Of a stretch of DNA of 64,000 nt, positions 41,028-48,928 are shown in pieces. Both the position numbers and the translations under genes were made by a program. Location: the sequence record NC_028925.1; one strand, written 5' to 3'. A model generated the notes under the pieces. The model had not been told where the DNA came from and did not search any database. It saw only the letters and a program-made list of their open reading frames with translations. The first letter of the stretch is position 1, and each line of letters opens with the position of its first letter. The stretch is from Escherichia phage vB_EcoM_VR25.

Positions 41028-42308
41028 ATGGCAAAGATTAACGAACTGCTGCGCGAGTCAACTACCACTACCAGCAACTCCTTGGGCCGCCCGAATCTTG
41101 TTGCTTTGACCCGTGCTACAACCAAATTGATTTACCGCGATATTATCGCTGAACAACGTACTAACCAGCCAGTTGCGGCTCTGTACGGTGTTAAATATCT
41201 TACTCCTGATAATGAATTCAGTTTCCAGACTGGTGCTACTTATGGTGGTGAAGTCGGTTCTAAAGACCGTACAACTATTCCAGAATTAGCTACAGCTACT
41301 CAGCCTGTTGCTAAAGGCGAATATGTAAAATATCAAAATATCGTTTACAAAGCTCTGGTGGATAATCCATTTGCAACAACCACAGAAACAGTATTATCTG
41401 ATGTTCTACAGGAAGGTCTTATTGCATCGACTATTCGTTTAGTTCCTGATGCAGCGCATACCGAGAAATTTGAAGCCGGTGATGTTGAAATTAGTAACGC
41501 CGTGTTCCAGGTTAATAAATGGAATGCTCCTGTTAAATCCCGTAAATTGAAAACTGCACTGACTGTTGAACTTGCTCAGGATATGGAAGCAAACGGTTTT
41601 AATGCTCCTGCTTTCCTGGAAGACCTGCTTGCAACTACCATGGCAGACGAAATTAACAAAGATGTTCTGCAGTCTCTGATTACCGTTTCCAAGCGTTATA
41701 AAGTCACTGGCGTTTCTGATAAAGGTTTCATCGATTTGACATATGATTCAGCTCCAGAAGGCGCACGTAAACTATACGAACTGGTTTGCGAAATGAACTC
41801 TGAAATTCAGAAAACTACATCTTACTCTGGTACATTCGTTGTTGCCTCAAGTCGTGTGGCCGCGATGCTCGCCGGTTCCGGTTGGTTGAAACATAAACCT
41901 GAAGATGAACAATGGCTCCCGGAAACCGCGTACGGCTATTTGATTAATGGTCTTCCTGTATTCTGTGATGTTAACAGTCCATTGGATTATGTAACCGTTG
42001 GCGTTAAAGAAAATTACGGTGGAAACGAAGTCGTAGGCTCAATCTTCTATGCTCCTTATACCGAAGGCCTGGACTTAGATGATGAAGAACATGTAGGTGC
42101 GTTTAAGGTCATTGTGGACCCAGACAGCTTGCAGCCATCTATCTCCTTGATGGTTCGATATGCACTTTCAGCTAACCCTTACACCGTTGCTAAAGACGAC
42201 AAAGAAGCTCGTATTATCGATGCAACTAATATGGATTTAATGGCCGGCCAGAGCAACATGTCTTATCTGCTCGGTGTTAAACTTCCACCAATCATTTATG
42301 AGGCGTAA
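41028..42308 (+). CDS. 24: gp24 head vertex protein
   Basis: ORF track 426 aa; N-terminus MAKINELLRESTTT...GRPNLVALTRATTKLIY matches T4 gp24. Confidence 0.9.
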   Translation: MAKINELLRESTTTTSNSLGRPNLVALTRATTKLIYRDIIAEQRTNQPVAALYGVKYLTPDNEFSFQTGATYGGEVGSKDRTTIPELATATQPVAKGEYVKYQNIVYKALVDNPFATTTETVLSDVLQEGLIASTIRLVPDAAHTEKFEAGDVEISNAVFQVNKWNAPVKSRKLKTALTVELAQDMEANGFNAPAFLEDLLATTMADEINKDVLQSLITVSKRYKVTGVSDKGFIDLTYDSAPEGARKLYELVCEMNSEIQKTTSYSGTFVVASSRVAAMLAGSGWLKHKPEDEQWLPETAYGYLINGLPVFCDVNSPLDYVTVGVKENYGGNEVVGSIFYAPYTEGLDLDDEEHVGAFKVIVDPDSLQPSISLMVRYALSANPYTVAKDDKEARIIDATNMDLMAGQSNMSYLLGVKLPPIIYEA

Positions 42309-43592
42309 ATGCAAAAGATTAACGCACTAATTCACGAATCAACATTAACGGCGGCCAACCAGGTCGCCCGTCCTAATTTGCTTTCTTATACTCGGGCTAC
42401 GAATAAACGAATTTTTAAAGCTCTTGTGGCCGAACAGAAAACTACTCAGCCAGTCGCAGCGCTGTATGGCGTTCGTGTTCTGAACCCAGATGATAAAATG
42501 ACTTATCTTGGTGGAGCAACATTTGCAGGCCAGATTGGTATGTTCGAGCGTAAGAATATTCCAGAATTTACGAACAAAGACGAAGCTTATGCAGTCGGCA
42601 ACATGTTCCAGTTTGAAAGCATTGTATTCAAAGCTTTGGAAGCTTCTCCTTTTGCCGGGACCCTCGAAACTGATTTGGGTGAAGTTATTTCTGAAGCCAT
42701 TGCGGCTGGCCATATAAGAATGATGTCAGATGCGGCTTTCACTGATAAATTTGAACAAGGACATCCTGAAATTGCTGAAGCCGGTTTCCGTATTGATAAA
42801 TGGCAGACTGAAGTTAAATCCAGAAAACTGAAAACCTCTTTAACCGTTGAGCTTGCGCAAGACCTGGAAGCAAATGGTTTCGACGCAACAGATTTTATTG
42901 ATAATATCCTTGGTATTCAAATGGCAGAGGAAATTAATAAGGACGTACTGCAATCTTTAATTACCGTGAGTTCGCGTTTTAAAGTCCAGGGTGTTTCCGA
43001 AAAAGGTGTACTTAATCTTACTGATGCCGCTTATGATAATGCTCAGGACCGTGCTCGAACTCTGTATTATTATATGTGCGAAATGAATTCCGCAGTTCAA
43101 CGTCAGACTTCGTTCGCTGGTACATATGCAGTCGCTTCTTCCCGTTGTGCAGCTATTTTAGCAGCTTCTGGCTGGGTTGAGAAAAAGGAAGACCAAGATG
43201 AATTGGCCTATGGTGTTCTGAAGAACGGTTTGCCACTTTATGCAGATATGAATAGCCCGTGCGATTATGTTATTGTTGGTGTAAATGCTGATATGGGTGA
43301 AGGTCAGACAGTCGCATCTTTGTATTATGCGCCTTATACGGAAGGTCTTAGTGAAGTTGATGATGAGGGTGACACCTCGGTTGGGGAATTCAAGGTTATC
43401 GTTGACCCCGAAAGTTTACAGCCTACAGTTGCACTGTTAGCTCGTTATGCACTGACTGCAAACCCTTACACCGTTGCTAAAGACGATAAAGAAGCTCGCA
43501 TTATTGATGGAGCTGATATGGATAAGATGGCTAACCAAAGCCAATTGAGTTCTTATCTTGGTGTTAAACTTCCACCACTGGAAAAAGAATAA
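42309..43592 (+). CDS. gp24 paralog (second head vertex protein copy, tandem duplicate)
   Basis: ORF track 427 aa; collinear similarity to the preceding gene (MQKINALIHEST..., ...PYTVAKDDKEARIID...GVKLPP). Confidence 0.85.
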   Translation: MQKINALIHESTLTAANQVARPNLLSYTRATNKRIFKALVAEQKTTQPVAALYGVRVLNPDDKMTYLGGATFAGQIGMFERKNIPEFTNKDEAYAVGNMFQFESIVFKALEASPFAGTLETDLGEVISEAIAAGHIRMMSDAAFTDKFEQGHPEIAEAGFRIDKWQTEVKSRKLKTSLTVELAQDLEANGFDATDFIDNILGIQMAEEINKDVLQSLITVSSRFKVQGVSEKGVLNLTDAAYDNAQDRARTLYYYMCEMNSAVQRQTSFAGTYAVASSRCAAILAASGWVEKKEDQDELAYGVLKNGLPLYADMNSPCDYVIVGVNADMGEGQTVASLYYAPYTEGLSEVDDEGDTSVGEFKVIVDPESLQPTVALLARYALTANPYTVAKDDKEARIIDGADMDKMANQSQLSSYLGVKLPPLEKE

Positions 43593-44617: not shown

Positions 44618-44703
44618 AATCTCTCACTTTTGATGTTATAAATATCATTATAAATTATACCCTCTATACTTTCTTTCTCTGAAAGGAATTAATCGTATCG
44701 GAA

Positions 44704-45210: not shown

Positions 45211-45347
45211 GTTGAGTTAGTGAAGCTATCTTAACATGGAATTTTTAACTTGTAAACAGGAGTTTTATGCCAGATATTCTTGAACGTAAAGATTTACTTT
45301 ACAACCGCCACTACTTTAATAAATATTAAATTAATAACGGAGGATTT

Positions 45348-46928
45348 ATGACACAAACTACAGGTGAAAAAGAAGGCGTATTTTACGGTTATTCTCTTTA
45401 TGATTTGAATAAAGAAAAACTAATAACTTTTGATGAATTACTTACAGGTGTTCAAGGAGAGCCCGGAGAAAATGGCGATATTGGACCAAAAGGCCCTATT
45501 GGTTTAACAGGTCCTCAAGGACCGAAAGGTGATACCGGGTCAAAAGGTATTAAAGGTGATACCGGCCCTCAAGGTATTCAAGGGCCCGCTGGCCCACAAG
45601 GTCCTCAGGGAGAAAAGGGAGTCCAAGGTTTAGCTGGAGTCCAAGGCATTCAAGGACCAGTCGGCCACCAAGGAGTGAAAGGTGATACCGGCCCTCAAGG
45701 TATTCAAGGACCGAAAGGTGATACAGGTCCTCAAGGCCCACAAGGTGACAAAGGCGAAATGGGTCCGGTGGGTCCGGCTGGTCTAACATGGAAAGGAACA
45801 TGGGACGCTGATGTAGAGTATTCTATAAATGAGGCTGTCGGATATGGTGGTTCTTTATATTTCGCCAAAACAAAAGTTCCTAATGGCGAAATACCAACAC
45901 CGACTTCTAACTATTGGGGTGTTTTGGCTACCGAGGGTCCACAAGGTCCACAAGGTCAACAAGGTCTTAAAGGTGATACCGGTCCTCAAGGTATTCAAGG
46001 ACCTGTAGGGCCTGTAGGGCAGCAGGGTATTCAGGGACCAAGAGGACTTCAAGGGTCAGAAGGTGAAATAGGACCGCGGGGTATTCAAGGGCTAAAAGGC
46101 GAAACTGGGCCCGCTGGTCCACAGGGTATTCAAGGGCTAAAAGGCGAGGTGGGTGCTCAGGGTCCTTCTGGTTCTCCTGGACTTACAGGACCAGAAGGAC
46201 CTCGTGGGTTAACAGGCGAAGCTGGAGCTCAAGGACCTCGTGGTGCTATAGGTCCTATCGGTTTAACAGGTCCTATCGGTTTAACGGGTCCTCAAGGTAT
46301 TCAAGGTCCTAAAGGTGATACAGGTCCTCAAGGCTTACAAGGTCCTCAAGGCTTACGAGGTATTCAAGGAGCTCCTGGAGTAAAAGGAGAAGCGGGTGCA
46401 CAAGGTCCTATCGGTTTAACAGGTCCGAAAGGTGATACCGGTCCTCAAGGTATTCAAGGACCGAAAGGTGATACAGGAGCACAAGGTCCTATTGGTTTAA
46501 CTGGACCTAAAGGTGATACAGGCCCGAGCCCTTATACTGTTTATAATTATTCTAATGTTGCAACTGGTTATGCTGAAATGGTTATGCCTGGTGTGTCATC
46601 AAACACAGTATTTAGACTTCGTTCAGTTGGAACTAATATAGAATATAGTGTTCTAAGTAAAGGCGGAGCTAATAGATATGTAGATTGGCACTTTTCAATT
46701 CCAAGTGTTTCCGGCAATACAGTAAGTACTAATAGCGGAACTAATACATTAACTCCTACAGGTAATTTTACTATTGTGGCGACCGCTTATAATGGACTAA
46801 GGGGATTTACAATAACATTATGCGAGTGGGGTTCAAGAGCTATTGTTGATATCACTGTTTATCATCATGGGCGTTCGGGAGACACAACCAAAGCTGTGGC
46901 TATTCGTATGACTACTACAAAATACTAA
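45348..46928 (+). CDS. collagen-like (Gly-X-Y repeat) protein with C-terminal globular domain
   Basis: ORF track 526 aa; two long Gly-X-Y runs separated by a roughly 50-aa non-collagenous insert; GGAGG RBS; no counterpart in T4 at this position. Confidence 0.8.
   Translation: MTQTTGEKEGVFYGYSLYDLNKEKLITFDELLTGVQGEPGENGDIGPKGPIGLTGPQGPKGDTGSKGIKGDTGPQGIQGPAGPQGPQGEKGVQGLAGVQGIQGPVGHQGVKGDTGPQGIQGPKGDTGPQGPQGDKGEMGPVGPAGLTWKGTWDADVEYSINEAVGYGGSLYFAKTKVPNGEIPTPTSNYWGVLATEGPQGPQGQQGLKGDTGPQGIQGPVGPVGQQGIQGPRGLQGSEGEIGPRGIQGLKGETGPAGPQGIQGLKGEVGAQGPSGSPGLTGPEGPRGLTGEAGAQGPRGAIGPIGLTGPIGLTGPQGIQGPKGDTGPQGLQGPQGLRGIQGAPGVKGEAGAQGPIGLTGPKGDTGPQGIQGPKGDTGAQGPIGLTGPKGDTGPSPYTVYNYSNVATGYAEMVMPGVSSNTVFRLRSVGTNIEYSVLSKGGANRYVDWHFSIPSVSGNTVSTNSGTNTLTPTGNFTIVATAYNGLRGFTITLCEWGSRAIVDITVYHHGRSGDTTKAVAIRMTTTKY
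45553..46477 (+). repeat. near-identical direct repeats inside the collagen-like gene
   Basis: 32-mer AAAGGTGATACCGGCCCTCAAGGTATTCAAGG exact at 45553 and 45678, one mismatch at 45969, again within 46425-46477; tandem CCTATCGGTTTAACAGGT at 46252/46267. Confidence 0.7.
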
Positions 46929-46937
46929 GGAGCTTTA

Positions 46938-47801
46938 ATGGAACCGGTTAAAGCTGTGTTAGAGCCTGATGTAATAGATGTGGAATATGGTAATACATAC
47001 TCGGCTACTGTAACTCTGTCTCCTATAGAAAATATTCCAGATGGTTCCGTGATAAGATATGATTGGGTTGTTAATAACAAGTTCGTTGGTACGGGTGAAG
47101 CTACTCGTACCACCCAACCATCTCAGACCGGAAATTATGTATTATCATGTAGAGTATTCATTACTCCGCCTAATGAAAATACTGTAATGATAACAACTAA
47201 TAAATCATATGGGTATGTATATAAAAATTCCGATACAAGTCCAGTAGATGCAGAAATATTATATGATAACAAGATATACCAAATAGGAAGCAAAGTTAGA
47301 TTATTAGCCGTTGCCAATAACCCAGATACCAACTTTGTTAAAGGTATTATATGGAAGGATGCTGATGGTAAGATAATAGGTATAGGTCGGGAATATATCC
47401 ATACAATGCAATCAGAGTATGATATAGTTCGAGCTAAAGTTACAATGGATTCGCCTATAAGAGATGAATTTAGTAAGAACTTTACTATACATTTGTACGC
47501 TATAAATGTTCAAGAAGGAACATGTATAAGATATATTCATCCTTTAGACCACAGGGATGCAGGATTTATCTGGTGTGGTTGGTGGGTTATGGATGAAATC
47601 CAACGAGCGATAAAACTTGGGCTGGATTGGAAAAATCCAAAAGAGCTAGATTTAAATTACAAGTGTGATTTAGAGACATTAGCGTTATTGCTCAAGACAT
47701 ATCCTGAAGCCGAAGTTCAAGAATCAAGACACGGATATATAATAACCAGACTACAAATTGAGACTGGCGAAATATATAAAAAACCATATGAAGTAAAATA
47801 A
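46938..47801 (+). CDS. Hoc-like capsid decoration protein (second copy)
   Basis: ORF track 287 aa; C-terminal ...HPLDHRDAGFIWCGWWVMDEIQRAIK...YPEAEVQESRHGYII... parallels the capsid-binding C-terminus of the hoc product downstream. Confidence 0.7.
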   Translation: MEPVKAVLEPDVIDVEYGNTYSATVTLSPIENIPDGSVIRYDWVVNNKFVGTGEATRTTQPSQTGNYVLSCRVFITPPNENTVMITTNKSYGYVYKNSDTSPVDAEILYDNKIYQIGSKVRLLAVANNPDTNFVKGIIWKDADGKIIGIGREYIHTMQSEYDIVRAKVTMDSPIRDEFSKNFTIHLYAINVQEGTCIRYIHPLDHRDAGFIWCGWWVMDEIQRAIKLGLDWKNPKELDLNYKCDLETLALLLKTYPEAEVQESRHGYIITRLQIETGEIYKKPYEVK

Positions 47802-47804
47802 AAG

Positions 47805-47822
47805 GGCCTTGCGGCCCTTTAT
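47805..47822. terminator. terminator hairpin GGGCC-UUGC-GGCCC between convergent genes
   Basis: read directly. Confidence 0.5.
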
Positions 47823-47824
47823 CA

Positions 47825-48928
47825 TTAATAGACGTAATCGTATATAATACCAGCTTCCAATGCCGAACGGTGGACGATACGACCGTTACGAGATTCCTGT
47901 ACATCAACTTCCGGGTAATCACTAAGCATTTTGGCTAATACCGCCAGATGACAATAATATGGTGTATCCTCTTTAGTGGCTTTTTTCCAATCTGTACTTT
48001 CAGATGTTAATTTCTGAATAGCGTCCATAACCCACCAGCCACACCAAATATACGCAGTATTACGGACAGGAAGTGGATGTACATAAATTAAAGGGCATTC
48101 TTCTGGAATAACAGGCTCTGCTTCTTCCACAGTAACGGACTTAGTACCTGATTTAACTGAATTTGTAAAGCCTGTTTGTGATGCGGTAACTTCACAAGTA
48201 TATGTCTTCAAGCCTTCAGTGGATTCCGTTATTGCTCTTGTTGCTTCTGTTGAGTTGTCGTCCCATTTATATGCAAGAGTCGCACCAGGGATAGCAGGGG
48301 ACACAGAAGCTGTCAAATTGAATGGAACATCAACCGTTGCAGTAGACGGGCCTGAAATCTCAACAGTGAACTCAGGAAATGTATTGTTTTCGACCGTAAC
48401 AACTACTGCCTCAGGATTAATAACTTGATTGTCATAATCTGCCGCAGAAACGGTAATTTGGCAAGTTAAAGAAACTGGTCCTGCGTCAGTAGCAGCACGA
48501 GTAATATCTTTAGTAATTTCACCAGTAGACCACAAATATGCTATTGTAGCTCCACCGGGTTCACCTGTTACATTAGCCGAAGCGTTATATTCCTGACCAA
48601 CTTTAACAGTAGGAGTGGAAGTTGTTAATGTTGCTGTTGCAGCCATAGTCTTATTATTAACCGTAATGGTTGTTTGAGCCTCTGCCGTTTCAGGCTCTCC
48701 TTCTTCCGGCGTTGTGGTGGCAACAACTTTAATTACTTTTGAACCTGCTGGGCCAGCTGCAATATAATCCATAGTAGCAATAACAGAATCTTGTGGAACA
48801 TCATCAACGGTCCATACAAAAGATTCGGTACCAGCGACAGCGGCTCCAGCCCCAGTAGCAGTAAAATTAGTTGTTGCACCTATAACCGCTGTAGGTGTTA
48901 AAGGGGCAATTGATACAGTATAAGCCAT
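47825..48928 (-). CDS. hoc: Hoc, highly immunogenic outer capsid protein
   Basis: ORF track 367 aa (T4 about 376); C-terminus ...CPLIYVHP...AYIWCGWWVMD...YPEVDVQESRNGRIVH... matches T4 Hoc; minus orientation as in T4. Confidence 0.8.
   Translation of the reverse strand: MAYTVSIAPLTPTAVIGATTNFTATGAGAAVAGTESFVWTVDDVPQDSVIATMDYIAAGPAGSKVIKVVATTTPEEGEPETAEAQTTITVNNKTMAATATLTTSTPTVKVGQEYNASANVTGEPGGATIAYLWSTGEITKDITRAATDAGPVSLTCQITVSAADYDNQVINPEAVVVTVENNTFPEFTVEISGPSTATVDVPFNLTASVSPAIPGATLAYKWDDNSTEATRAITESTEGLKTYTCEVTASQTGFTNSVKSGTKSVTVEEAEPVIPEECPLIYVHPLPVRNTAYIWCGWWVMDAIQKLTSESTDWKKATKEDTPYYCHLAVLAKMLSDYPEVDVQESRNGRIVHRSALEAGIIYDYVY

What the first reader, a model, noticed from the sequence alone, without database searches (positions are those of the whole stretch)
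45348..46928. Collagen-like Gly-X-Y repeat protein inserted in the head-decoration region
A 526-aa ORF has a short N-terminal segment, two long Gly-X-Y triplet runs (G-P/E/D-x-G-x-K/Q... for about 100 and about 200 residues) separated by a roughly 50-aa non-collagenous insert, and a 140-aa C-terminal globular domain. T4 has no gene here (between the 24.x genes and hoc). It is transcribed with a second Hoc-like gene directly downstream, so it could be an additional capsid or fibre decoration, possibly for adhesion to host or mucosal surfaces.
Basis: partly seen in the sequence, partly recalled or inferred. Interest (0 to 1): 0.7.

Follow-up and report, generated by a model that had tools for sequence, protein, structure and literature searches.

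The report
Collagen-like fibre gene beside hoc
A T4-like coliphage carries, next to its head-decoration gene hoc, an optional two-gene cassette encoding a roughly 90-100 nm collagen-like fibre and a second Hoc-like protein; relatives in other phage families point to a capsid-mounted adhesion fibre, but this has not been shown experimentally.

Summary
ORF 45348-46928 (+) encodes 526 aa. It has a 33-aa N-terminus, 38 and 66 unbroken Gly-X-Y triplets, a 49-aa insert and a 132-aa C-terminal domain.

The window is a Gaprivervirus. The protein is 95.6% identical to phage VR26 gp244 and orthologous to VR7 ORF196w. So the gene is already in databases, auto-annotated "tail fiber protein", but I found no characterisation of it.

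New here:
- The insert is a CBM5/12-type module.
- The C-terminal domain is a rare beta-sandwich that phages exchange among themselves.
- The family has one fixed body and lineage-specific N-terminal anchors.
- In T4-likes the gene always precedes a second Hoc-like gene.
- In Drexlerviridae it sits just upstream of the major capsid gene and starts with two DUF1737 domains. Cryo-EM of phi24B showed DUF1737 to be a hexon-pore capsid-binding domain.
- In Vequintavirinae it lies between the capsid and neck genes.

Best reading (about 0.55): a dispensable, trimeric, capsid-borne adhesion fibre. The main rival is an accessory tail or neck fibre. The attachment site of the 33-aa anchor and the ligand are both unknown. 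Interest is moderate.

The parts
45267..45329 (+). 20-aa leader mini-ORF (MPDILERKDLLYNRHYFNKY) with its own AGGAG. Whether it belongs to the functional unit is uncertain.
   Evidence: It is conserved in VR26, VR7 and VR5. In KIT01 and JS10 the same ribosome-binding site and ATG start the collagen gene itself. VR20, which lacks the cassette, keeps that site and ATG followed by only 9 codons.
45318..45325 (+). AATAAATA, a 7-of-8 match to the T4 late-promoter box TATAAATA, 30 nt upstream of the start codon. It is a candidate only.
   Evidence: No exact TATAAATA lies closer than 711 nt upstream on the + strand. That distant copy is also present in VR20, which lacks the cassette.
45348..46928 (+). 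Coding sequence of the collagen-like fibre protein, 526 aa.
   Evidence: It is 95.6% identical to VR26 gp244.
45348..45446 (+). N-terminal anchor, aa 1-33, with core motif G-x3-G-(V/T)-(F/Y)-Y-G-Y-x-(L/F)-Y-D-L...F.
   Evidence: It is 100% identical in VR26, VR7 and VR5 even though their C-terminal tips differ. A related motif occurs in the Vequintavirinae and JS10-type homologues. It has no Pfam hit and is unrelated to DUF1737.
45447..45788 (+). Collagen run 1, aa 34-147, 38 Gly-X-Y triplets, about 33 nm if triple-helical.
45789..45935 (+). CBM5/12-type module, aa 148-196, interrupting the collagen stalk.
   Evidence: A profile of 36 such inserts hits the chitin-binding domain of chitinase A1 (1ED7) at E = 3.8e-7, and other CBM5/12 domains. 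The single sequence scores only E = 0.046 against Pfam. The module is present in all 13 family members examined.
45936..46529 (+). Collagen run 2, aa 197-394, 66 triplets, about 57 nm. It contains 18- and 36-nt tandem repeats.
   Evidence: It is 6 triplets longer than in VR26 through an in-frame indel.
46530..46925 (+). C-terminal 10-strand beta-sandwich tip, aa 395-526.
46938..47801 (+). Hoc-like protein 2, 287 aa, the co-oriented cassette partner.
   Evidence: Its N-terminal domains are found only downstream of collagen-like genes in the phage collection.
47801..47820 (.). Perfect GC-rich hairpin between the convergent Hoc-like 2 and hoc genes, a likely bidirectional terminator. It marks the right edge of the cassette.
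47825..48928 (-). Canonical hoc, 367 aa. Context only, not part of the cassette.

Best explanation
The ORF encodes a subunit of a trimeric collagen-like fibre displayed on the virion, most likely on the capsid.

Proposed architecture, N- to C-terminus:
- a 33-aa anchor that fixes the fibre to the particle;
- about 33 nm of triple helix;
- a knob made of three CBM5/12-type modules;
- about 57 nm of triple helix;
- a beta-sandwich tip that phages exchange among themselves.

The gene forms a dispensable 2.5-kb cassette with a second Hoc-like capsid protein. The cassette sits between 24.3 and hoc.

The proposed job is accessory, reversible adhesion of the particle to glycans on host envelopes, biofilm or mucus. 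This would raise the encounter rate without triggering infection.

Shown: the sequence architecture, the CBM5/12 relationship, the fold class of the tip, the gene neighbourhoods, the modular exchange of parts, and the DUF1737 anchors in the Drexlerviridae relatives.

Inferred: trimerisation, presence in virions, capsid attachment in T4-like phages, and the ligand.
For: 1. Collagen identity and architecture are established.

2. The same body plan (anchor, collagen, CBM5/12, collagen, tip) occurs in 13 phage proteins. The anchors are lineage-specific and the tips are shuffled, which is the pattern expected of a surface fibre whose base fits the particle and whose tip fits a ligand.

3. In Drexlerviridae (e4/1c, AugustePiccard/Bas01, AN_ECEAS, Phagiculus) the gene lies immediately upstream of the major capsid protein gene, after the head protease. 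It is not among the tail-fibre genes.

4. Three of those four (e4/1c, Bas01, Phagiculus), and the metagenomic homologue P0016, start with DUF1737 at 33-38 bits against a cut-off of 24. The three phage proteins show two DUF1737 stretches; P0016 shows one. AN_ECEAS scores below the cut-off (14 bits). Cryo-EM of phi24B shows DUF1737 bound as a hexamer ring in the pore of capsid hexons (bioRxiv 10.64898/2026.04.10.717836). A trimer carrying two DUF1737 domains per chain supplies six, enough for one ring. That last step is my inference.

5. In Vequintavirinae the gene lies between the major capsid protein (with an Inh_N-like gene) and the neck genes. The rV5 tail-fibre genes are elsewhere in that genome (PMC3606486). 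The neighbouring large collagen protein's positional equivalent, CB7_10, is in virions by mass spectrometry (PMC7344957).

6. In T4-like phages the gene is always followed by a Hoc-like gene that keeps the Hoc capsid-binding domain. That partner's N-terminal domains occur nowhere else in 50,697 phage records. The same pairing is seen in metagenomic contigs.

7. A collagen-like capsid decoration has a precedent in SPP1 gp12, listed in the review PMC7602432 as a collagen-like trimer at quasi-sixfold positions with a host-adhesion role.

8. The ORF is intact in every isolate genome examined. Its length variation relative to VR26 is in frame.
Against: - No virion proteomics or imaging for any T4-like member was available. 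The VR7 genome paper is not held in the library.
- The 33-aa anchor has no detectable relation to DUF1737 (hhalign probability 1%) or to any Pfam family. Capsid attachment therefore rests on analogy and gene position.
- In T4-like capsids the hexon centre is the Hoc site, so a different site or an adaptor would be needed.
- Vequintavirinae share the anchor motif but have no Hoc-like partner, which argues against Hoc-like 2 being the dock.
- RefSeq and PHROGs call the protein a tail fibre. Collagen shafts are well documented in lateral tail fibres (PMC3368898; phi24B gp61).
- In the alignment to the 1ED7 chitin-binding domain, the Trp of its GWEP segment aligns with Glu in this protein. From my own knowledge, that Trp is the key chitin-contact residue, so carbohydrate binding cannot be assumed.
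- The cassette is absent from VR20 in the same genus, so it is dispensable.
- One metagenomic contig carries a shortened copy with an in-frame stop codon.
Confidence: 0.55

Rival explanations
1. It is an accessory tail or neck fibre, comparable to a side tail fibre or a whisker. The N-terminal motif would dock on the baseplate, tail tip or collar, and the tip would act as an extra receptor-binding protein that widens host range.
For: - PHROG 5073 and RefSeq annotate it as a tail fibre protein.
- Collagen-like shafts occur in lambdoid side-tail proteins (PMC3368898) and in the phi24B gp61 lateral fibres.
- CBM5/12-like profile hits include solved tail-fibre chains (8ke9, and the F2 pyocin fibre more weakly).
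- Folds like the C-terminal domain occur at the C-termini of proteins named tail fibre in the BFVD library.
- Tip swapping is typical of receptor-binding proteins.
- The anchor motif is shared by two myovirus groups whose capsid decoration differs. That would fit a tail or neck docking site, if they share one.
Against: - In none of the three phage families does the gene lie with the tail-fibre genes.
- Sibling proteins carry a proven capsid-binding domain as their anchor.
- There is no similarity to known tail-attachment domains; Pfam finds only Collagen.
- The 'tail fibre' names are automatic annotations with no experiment behind them.
Confidence: 0.27
2. The fibre does not bind the capsid shell directly. 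It hangs from the co-transcribed Hoc-like protein 2, which acts as an adaptor sitting at hexon centres. This is a sub-variant of the head-fibre model.
For: - Gene linkage is strict in all T4-like cases.
- The two genes are 9 nt apart, and a ribosome-binding site overlaps the stop codon.
- The short anchor type pairs with the YIHPLDHRD-type Hoc-like 2. The JS10-type anchor pairs with the JS10-type Hoc-like 2. These pairings hold even though the tip, which is encoded between the anchor and Hoc-like 2, is swapped independently.
- Kosakonia phage 305 keeps only this Hoc-like gene and the fibre gene.
Against: - The anchor is 100% identical in VR26 and VR7, while their Hoc-like 2 proteins share only about 40% identity overall (33% over the outward-facing N-terminal domains).
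- Vequintavirinae have the same anchor motif but no Hoc relative nearby.
- Hoc binds as a monomer, per the review table, whereas the fibre should be a trimer.
- The co-variation rests on only two classes and could simply reflect inheritance of the cassette as a unit.
Confidence: 0.2
3. The protein is not a virion component. It would be either a product acting in or on the infected cell, or a decaying passenger gene of a mobile cassette with no current function.
For: - The cassette is dispensable: VR20 and T4 lack it.
- One metagenomic contig has a shortened copy with an in-frame stop codon.
- No exact late promoter lies directly upstream.
Against: - The ORF is intact in all 13 isolate genomes across three families, and its domains are conserved.
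- The repeat-length change relative to VR26 is in frame.
- It has a strong ribosome-binding site.
- The N-terminus is not hydrophobic and does not look like a signal peptide.
- Its neighbours are structural genes in every lineage.
- The defective contig comes from an automatic short-read assembly, which may have collapsed the repeats.
Confidence: 0.08

Closest known systems
VR26 gp244 (YP_009214030) and VR7 ORF196w (YP_004063877), with homologues in VR5, ESCO10, KIT01, JS10 and Kosakonia phage 305
   Same: These are orthologues at the same locus (24.3, fibre, Hoc-like 2, hoc). VR26 is 95.6% identical and has an identical C-terminal domain. VR7, VR5 and KIT01 share the anchor, collagen runs and CBM5/12 insert.
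   Different: VR26 is 6 triplets shorter. VR7, VR5 and KIT01 carry unrelated C-terminal tips. JS10 has a longer anchor region and much shorter collagen runs. I found no experimental characterisation of any of them. Their annotations read 'hypothetical', 'collagen triple helix repeat' or an automatic 'tail fiber protein'.
Drexlerviridae collagen repeat proteins (AugustePiccard bas01_0010, e4/1c gp0011, Phagiculus, AN_ECEAS)
   Same: They share the collagen, CBM5/12, collagen, beta-sandwich body. The tip is 29-52% identical.
   Different: Their anchor is a domain of about 100 aa rather than the 33-aa motif. In e4/1c, Bas01 and Phagiculus it scores as two DUF1737 domains. The gene sits directly upstream of the major capsid protein gene.
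phi24B gp84 N-terminal DUF1737 capsid-decorating domain (bioRxiv 10.64898/2026.04.10.717836)
   Same: It is an experimentally defined capsid anchor carrying a glycan-directed payload. It supplies the anchor type used by the Drexlerviridae siblings of this protein.
   Different: The window protein has no DUF1737. The gp84 payload is an esterase, not a collagen fibre.
SPP1 gp12 collagen-like capsid decoration protein
   Same: It is a collagen-like trimer on the outside of a tailed-phage capsid with a proposed adhesion role (review PMC7602432).
   Different: From my own knowledge, gp12 is a very small protein with only a few Gly-X-Y triplets, no CBM module and no globular tip, and it is encoded next to the SPP1 capsid gene. 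I did not compare the sequences.
EHEC prophage collagen-like proteins EPclA and EPclB, and phi24B gp61 lateral tail fibres
   Same: They are phage-encoded trimeric collagen stalks interrupted by a non-collagen element and ending in a small C-terminal globular domain (PMC3368898).
   Different: They have a PfN N-terminal domain, an alpha-helical coiled-coil interruption and a PfC trimerisation domain, and they are tail-associated. Here Pfam finds only Collagen, the interruption is CBM5/12-type, and the gene sits in a head-gene context.
T4 Hoc
   Same: It is a dispensable outer-capsid adhesin encoded at the same locus and is credited with mucus or host adhesion.
   Different: Hoc is a monomer built of Ig-like domains plus a C-terminal capsid-binding domain. 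The fibre has neither. Only its downstream neighbour is Hoc-like.

Membership tests
Collagen triple-helix repeat proteins (Pfam PF01391) | Long uninterrupted Gly-X-Y repeats scoring above the Pfam gathering threshold | tested here: met
   168.9 bits against a cut-off of 27.2. There are 38 and 66 perfect triplets. Pro fills 41 of 104 X positions and Gln 37 of 104 Y positions.
Collagen triple-helix repeat proteins (Pfam PF01391) | Formation of a trimeric triple helix | not testable with these tools
   This needs circular dichroism, SEC-MALS or EM of the protein, or multimer modelling. Only monomer prediction was available.
CBM5/12 carbohydrate-binding modules (PF02839) | Sequence-profile relationship to solved CBM5/12 domains | tested here: met
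   A profile of 36 inserts hits 1ED7 (chitinase A1 chitin-binding domain) at E = 3.8e-7, plus Chitinase 60, chitin deacetylases and chitinases B and C. PF02839 is precomputed on many collagen homologues. The window sequence alone scores 14.2 bits, below the cut-off of 26.2.
CBM5/12 carbohydrate-binding modules (PF02839) | Surface aromatic residues that contact the polysaccharide, and actual binding | tested here: inconclusive
   The conserved W, Y and W of the fold core are present. The Trp of the 1ED7 GWEP segment aligns with Glu in GEIP. Binding itself cannot be tested here.
DUF1737 capsid-decorating proteins (PF08410, phi24B gp84 type) | An N-terminal DUF1737 domain | tested here: not met
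   The N-terminus has no Pfam hit at E <= 10. hhalign of the anchor profile against the DUF1737 repeats of the sibling proteins gives a probability of 1%. The Drexlerviridae siblings e4/1c, Bas01 and Phagiculus do meet this feature.
Hoc-like head decoration proteins (PHROG 1149) | Ig-like domains plus the conserved C-terminal capsid-binding domain (WxGWWVxD ... QESRxG) | tested here: not met
   The fibre has no Hoc PHROG hit among the 25 best of its 51 matches. Both neighbouring genes do, and both carry the motif.
Lambdoid side-tail collagen-like proteins (EPclA type) | PfN N-terminal domain, PCoil coiled coil, PfC C-terminal trimerisation domain, and location in the tail-fibre region | tested here: not met
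   Pfam reports only Collagen. The interruption is CBM5/12-type, not a coiled coil. The locus is next to hoc. I did not align the protein directly with an EPclA sequence.
C1q/TNF-like (BclA-type) collagen C-terminal domains | A jelly-roll C1q/TNF fold at the C-terminus | tested here: not met
SPP1 gp12-type collagen-like capsid decoration | Binding of the trimer to capsid hexamers | not testable with these tools
   This needs virion proteomics, cryo-EM or a binding assay. Only the review-level description was available.
Virion structural protein (any location) | Detection in purified particles | not testable with these tools
   No proteomic data for VR7, VR26 or JS10 could be retrieved. The only indirect support is CB7_10 in a Vequintavirinae phage.

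The most novel reading that the evidence does not exclude
A single family of long collagen fibres has been fitted onto the heads of three unrelated groups of enterobacterial phages by swapping only the N-terminal capsid anchor. In Drexlerviridae the anchor is two DUF1737 domains per chain, so a trimer presents six domains, matching the hexameric DUF1737 ring seen in hexon pores. That would be a neat solution to the mismatch between threefold and sixfold symmetry. In T4-like phages and Vequintavirinae the anchor is a previously unrecognised motif of about 25 residues. T4-like phages such as this one would then carry head fibres of roughly 90-100 nm, as long as the head itself and too thin to see by negative stain. 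These fibres would act with two kinds of Hoc as a combinatorial adhesion coat.
Probability: 0.35. Interest if true: 0.65.

Novelty: new variant of a known kind. Interest (0 to 1): 0.45.

Why it matters
Phage capsids are usually treated as passive containers, with Hoc as the textbook exception. If this protein is a head fibre, some T4-like phages carry a second and much longer adhesin on the capsid. It would have an exchangeable tip and a carbohydrate-module knob.

That bears on three things:
- how phages loiter in mucus, biofilm or on cell surfaces;
- host-range prediction, because these genes are currently auto-annotated as tail fibres and would be miscounted as receptor-binding proteins;
- capsid display engineering, because it would offer a new anchor and a rigid spacer of about 90 nm.

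The practical correction already available is that the label 'tail fiber protein' has no support from gene context in any of the three phage families.

Tried and rejected

2. An exact T4 late promoter in front of the gene. None was found. The nearest, at 44637, also exists in VR20, which lacks the cassette.

3. A hidden Hoc-like partner in Vequintavirinae. The 211-aa and 216-aa neighbouring proteins gave hhalign probabilities below 1%.

4. A relationship between the 33-aa anchor and DUF1737. hhalign probability was 1%.

5. Word-indexed homologue searches. The C-terminal domain and the N-terminus each returned a single hit. The full-length query was swamped by generic collagens. I recovered the informative relatives by local BLAST and by tblastn against phage genomes.

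6. PDB sequence searches with the C-terminal domain and with the Drexlerviridae anchor gave nothing significant.

7. Literature on VR7, VR26 or JS10 virion proteomics and on collagen head fibres. Nothing usable was held in the library.

8. dN/dS against VR26. There are too few differences to use: 6 synonymous and 4 non-synonymous codons.

9. The second structure-prediction slot was not used.
Full report
**Observation**

The ORF at 45348-46928 (+) is real and encodes 526 aa. A GGAGG ribosome-binding site lies 5 nt before the ATG. A script over the translation gave this layout:
- a 33-aa N-terminus;
- 38 uninterrupted Gly-X-Y triplets (aa 34-147);
- a 49-aa non-collagen insert (aa 148-196);
- 66 uninterrupted triplets (aa 197-394);
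- a 132-aa C-terminal domain.

Pfam Collagen scores 168.9 bits against a cut-off of 27.2. Pro dominates the X position (41 of 104) and Gln the Y position (37 of 104). At 0.286 nm per residue, the established rise of a collagen helix, the two runs would span about 33 and 57 nm.

The only small difference is the C-terminal domain, which is 132 aa rather than about 140.

**Genomic setting**

The gene order in the window is:
- gp24(1) and gp24(2) (+);
- rnlB, 24.2 and 24.3 (-);
- the collagen gene (+);
- a 287-aa Hoc-like gene (+), 9 nt downstream;
- a perfect hairpin at 47801-47820;
- canonical hoc and inh (-);
- uvsW (+).

T4 has only about 100 nt between 24.3 and hoc.

The window is a Gaprivervirus. 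The fibre is 95.6% identical to VR26 gp244 and differs by a handful of substitutions and one in-frame 18-aa (6-triplet) indel. VR7 ORF196w was already annotated as a collagen triple-helix repeat domain protein. So the gene is in public databases. I found no functional study of it. RefSeq's label 'tail fiber protein' follows PHROG 5073.

VR20, in the same genus, lacks the whole 2.5-kb cassette. The cassette junctions lie at about 45273 and at the hairpin. The cassette is therefore accessory.

**The parts of the protein**

*Insert.* The window sequence alone scores only E = 0.046 against Pfam CBM_5_12. A profile of 36 homologous inserts hits the chitin-binding domain of chitinase A1 (1ED7) at E = 3.8e-7, and several other CBM5/12 domains. 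Many collagen homologues carry precomputed PF02839. The Trp of the 1ED7 GWEP segment aligns with Glu here. From memory, that Trp is the main chitin-contact residue, so ligand binding is not assured.

*C-terminal domain.*
- With a 10-sequence alignment, AlphaFold2 gives a confident 10-strand beta-sandwich (pLDDT 89, pTM 0.82).
- In the BFVD library the fold recurs at the C-termini of other uncharacterised phage collagen-like or 'tail fiber' proteins.
- The sequence family is tiny: about 16 clusters among 1.84 billion representative proteins and 20 phage records.

*N-terminus.* It has no Pfam hit. Its core motif (G-x3-G-V/T-F/Y-Y-G-Y-x-L/F-Y-D-L ... F) recurs in the T4-like, JS10-type and Vequintavirinae homologues.

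**Family comparison: the key result**

I extracted thirteen homologues from annotated phage genomes. All have the same body: collagen, CBM5/12, collagen, tip. The ends are modular.
- VR26, VR7, VR5 and KIT01 share an identical or near-identical anchor but carry three unrelated tips.
- The window's tip type occurs in T4-likes (VR26, JS10, B-01, Kosakonia 305), in Vequintavirinae (A5-4, A7_1) and in Drexlerviridae (e4/1c, RobRod40, Bas01, AN_ECEAS, Phagiculus, MM01).
- The anchors follow the phage lineage.

Gene context by lineage:
- *T4-like phages.* The fibre gene is always followed by a Hoc-like gene on the same strand. The N-terminal domains of that partner occur nowhere else in the phage collection. 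Kosakonia phage 305 even lacks the canonical hoc and keeps only this pair.
- *Drexlerviridae.* The gene sits between the head protease (plus a small protein, or in Bas01 a GDSL esterase annotated as head decoration) and the major capsid protein gene.
- *Vequintavirinae.* The order is major capsid protein, an Inh_N-like protein, a giant beads-on-a-string collagen protein, a small ORF, this fibre, then the adaptor and neck genes.
 - The recognised rV5 tail-fibre genes lie elsewhere in that genome (PMC3606486).
 - The positional equivalent of the giant collagen protein in phage CB7 is a virion protein by mass spectrometry (PMC7344957).

**The capsid-anchor link**

The Drexlerviridae anchors are tandem DUF1737 domains. 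e4/1c, Bas01 and Phagiculus score 33-38 bits against a cut-off of 24 with two matched stretches each. The metagenomic homologue P0016 scores 34 bits with one stretch. AN_ECEAS falls below the cut-off.

A 2026 preprint on phi24B (10.64898/2026.04.10.717836) shows by cryo-EM and proteomics that the DUF1737 domain of the gp84 esterase is a capsid-decorating domain. It binds as a hexameric ring in the central pore of hexons.

So at least the Drexlerviridae members of this fibre family carry an experimentally defined capsid anchor. A trimer with two DUF1737 domains per chain offers exactly six, which would reconcile a threefold fibre with a sixfold pore. That last point is my inference and was not tested.

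The window protein's anchor is unrelated to DUF1737 (hhalign probability 1%). For T4-like phages, capsid attachment is therefore an extrapolation from the shared body plan plus the hoc-locus position.

**Mechanism proposed**

The proposal is a trimeric fibre of about 90-100 nm, fixed by its N-termini to the head. It carries a mid-fibre CBM5/12 knob and an exchangeable beta-sandwich tip, and it serves as an accessory, reversible adhesin. This parallels Hoc and SPP1 gp12, both listed with adhesion roles in PMC7602432.

I put about 0.8 on 'virion surface fibre' and about 0.55 on 'capsid-borne'.

The attachment site is open. Hoc-like 2 as an adaptor is attractive for two reasons: the gene linkage is strict, and the two anchor classes pair with the two Hoc-like 2 classes despite independent tip swapping. 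Two findings weaken it:
- The anchor is invariant between VR26 and VR7, while their Hoc-like 2 proteins share only about 40% identity overall (33% over the outer domains).
- Vequintavirinae use the same anchor motif without any Hoc relative.

**Rivals**

The main rival is an accessory tail or neck fibre. It is supported by database names and by the well-known use of collagen shafts in lateral tail fibres, but gene context in three families argues against it.

A non-structural or decaying gene is unlikely, given intact ORFs in all isolates. One metagenomic contig does show a VR5-type copy with collapsed repeats, no CBM module and an in-frame stop codon. That could be a real pseudogene or an assembly artefact.

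**Expression**

No exact TATAAATA lies near the gene. The motif is otherwise enriched in the window, with 20 copies against 4.5 expected. A 7-of-8 variant, AATAAATA, sits 30 nt upstream of the start codon and is conserved in VR26, VR7 and VR5. Late expression is plausible but not shown.

**Verdict**

The gene is already catalogued but uncharacterised. It is a new variant of a known kind, namely phage surface fibres and capsid decoration. Interest is moderate.

Noticed in passing
window 45267-45329 (+): A 20-aa mini-ORF (MPDILERKDLLYNRHYFNKY) with its own AGGAG lies just upstream of the fibre gene. It is conserved in VR26, VR7, VR5 and a metagenomic contig. In KIT01 and JS10 the very same ribosome-binding site and ATG start the fibre gene itself. 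VR20, which lacks the cassette, keeps that site and ATG followed by only 9 codons. This looks like a scar of cassette loss, or a recombination junction.
   Followed up: partly
window 41028-42308 and 42309-43592 (+): There are two tandem paralogues of the capsid vertex protein gp24, back to back. VR7, VR26, VR5, JS10 and Kosakonia phage 305 also have two. T4 and KIT01 have one.
   Followed up: no
L019 1845-2597 (Logan SRR22213611 contig): A VR5-type fibre gene has only about 25 triplets, no CBM5/12 insert and one in-frame stop codon, while its Hoc-like 2 neighbour is intact. It is either a natural pseudogene or a repeat collapse in the short-read assembly.
   Followed up: partly
L006 4272-5561 (phage AugustePiccard/Bas01): The gene upstream of the Bas01 fibre gene, annotated as head outer capsid or head decoration, is a GDSL/SGNH esterase (PF13472, E = 4e-13). 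This echoes the capsid-borne esterase gp84 of phi24B, so two glycan-directed decorations appear to sit side by side.
   Followed up: partly
L004 1463-5263 and L013 778-4059 (Vequintavirinae): A giant protein of 1,093-1,266 aa has many short collagen segments alternating with globular repeats of about 45 aa. It is encoded between an Inh_N-like gene (next to the capsid gene) and the fibre homologue. Its positional equivalent in phage CB7 is a virion protein by mass spectrometry.
   Followed up: partly
window 47801-47820: A perfect 8-bp GC-rich hairpin (AAAGGGCC-TTGC-GGCCCTTT) lies between the convergent Hoc-like 2 and hoc genes, with T-runs on both strands. VR20 has a similar hairpin after hoc, and it coincides with the right junction of the cassette.
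   Followed up: partly
window 46400-46460 (aa 352-369 of the fibre): An in-frame 54-nt (6-triplet) length difference from VR26 lies inside 18- and 36-nt tandem repeats of collagen run 2. This suggests that fibre length varies by repeat slippage or recombination.
   Followed up: yes
window, whole: The T4 late-promoter box TATAAATA occurs 20 times against 4.5 expected, mostly on the + strand ahead of structural genes. None lies directly ahead of the fibre gene or of hoc and inh.
   Followed up: partly
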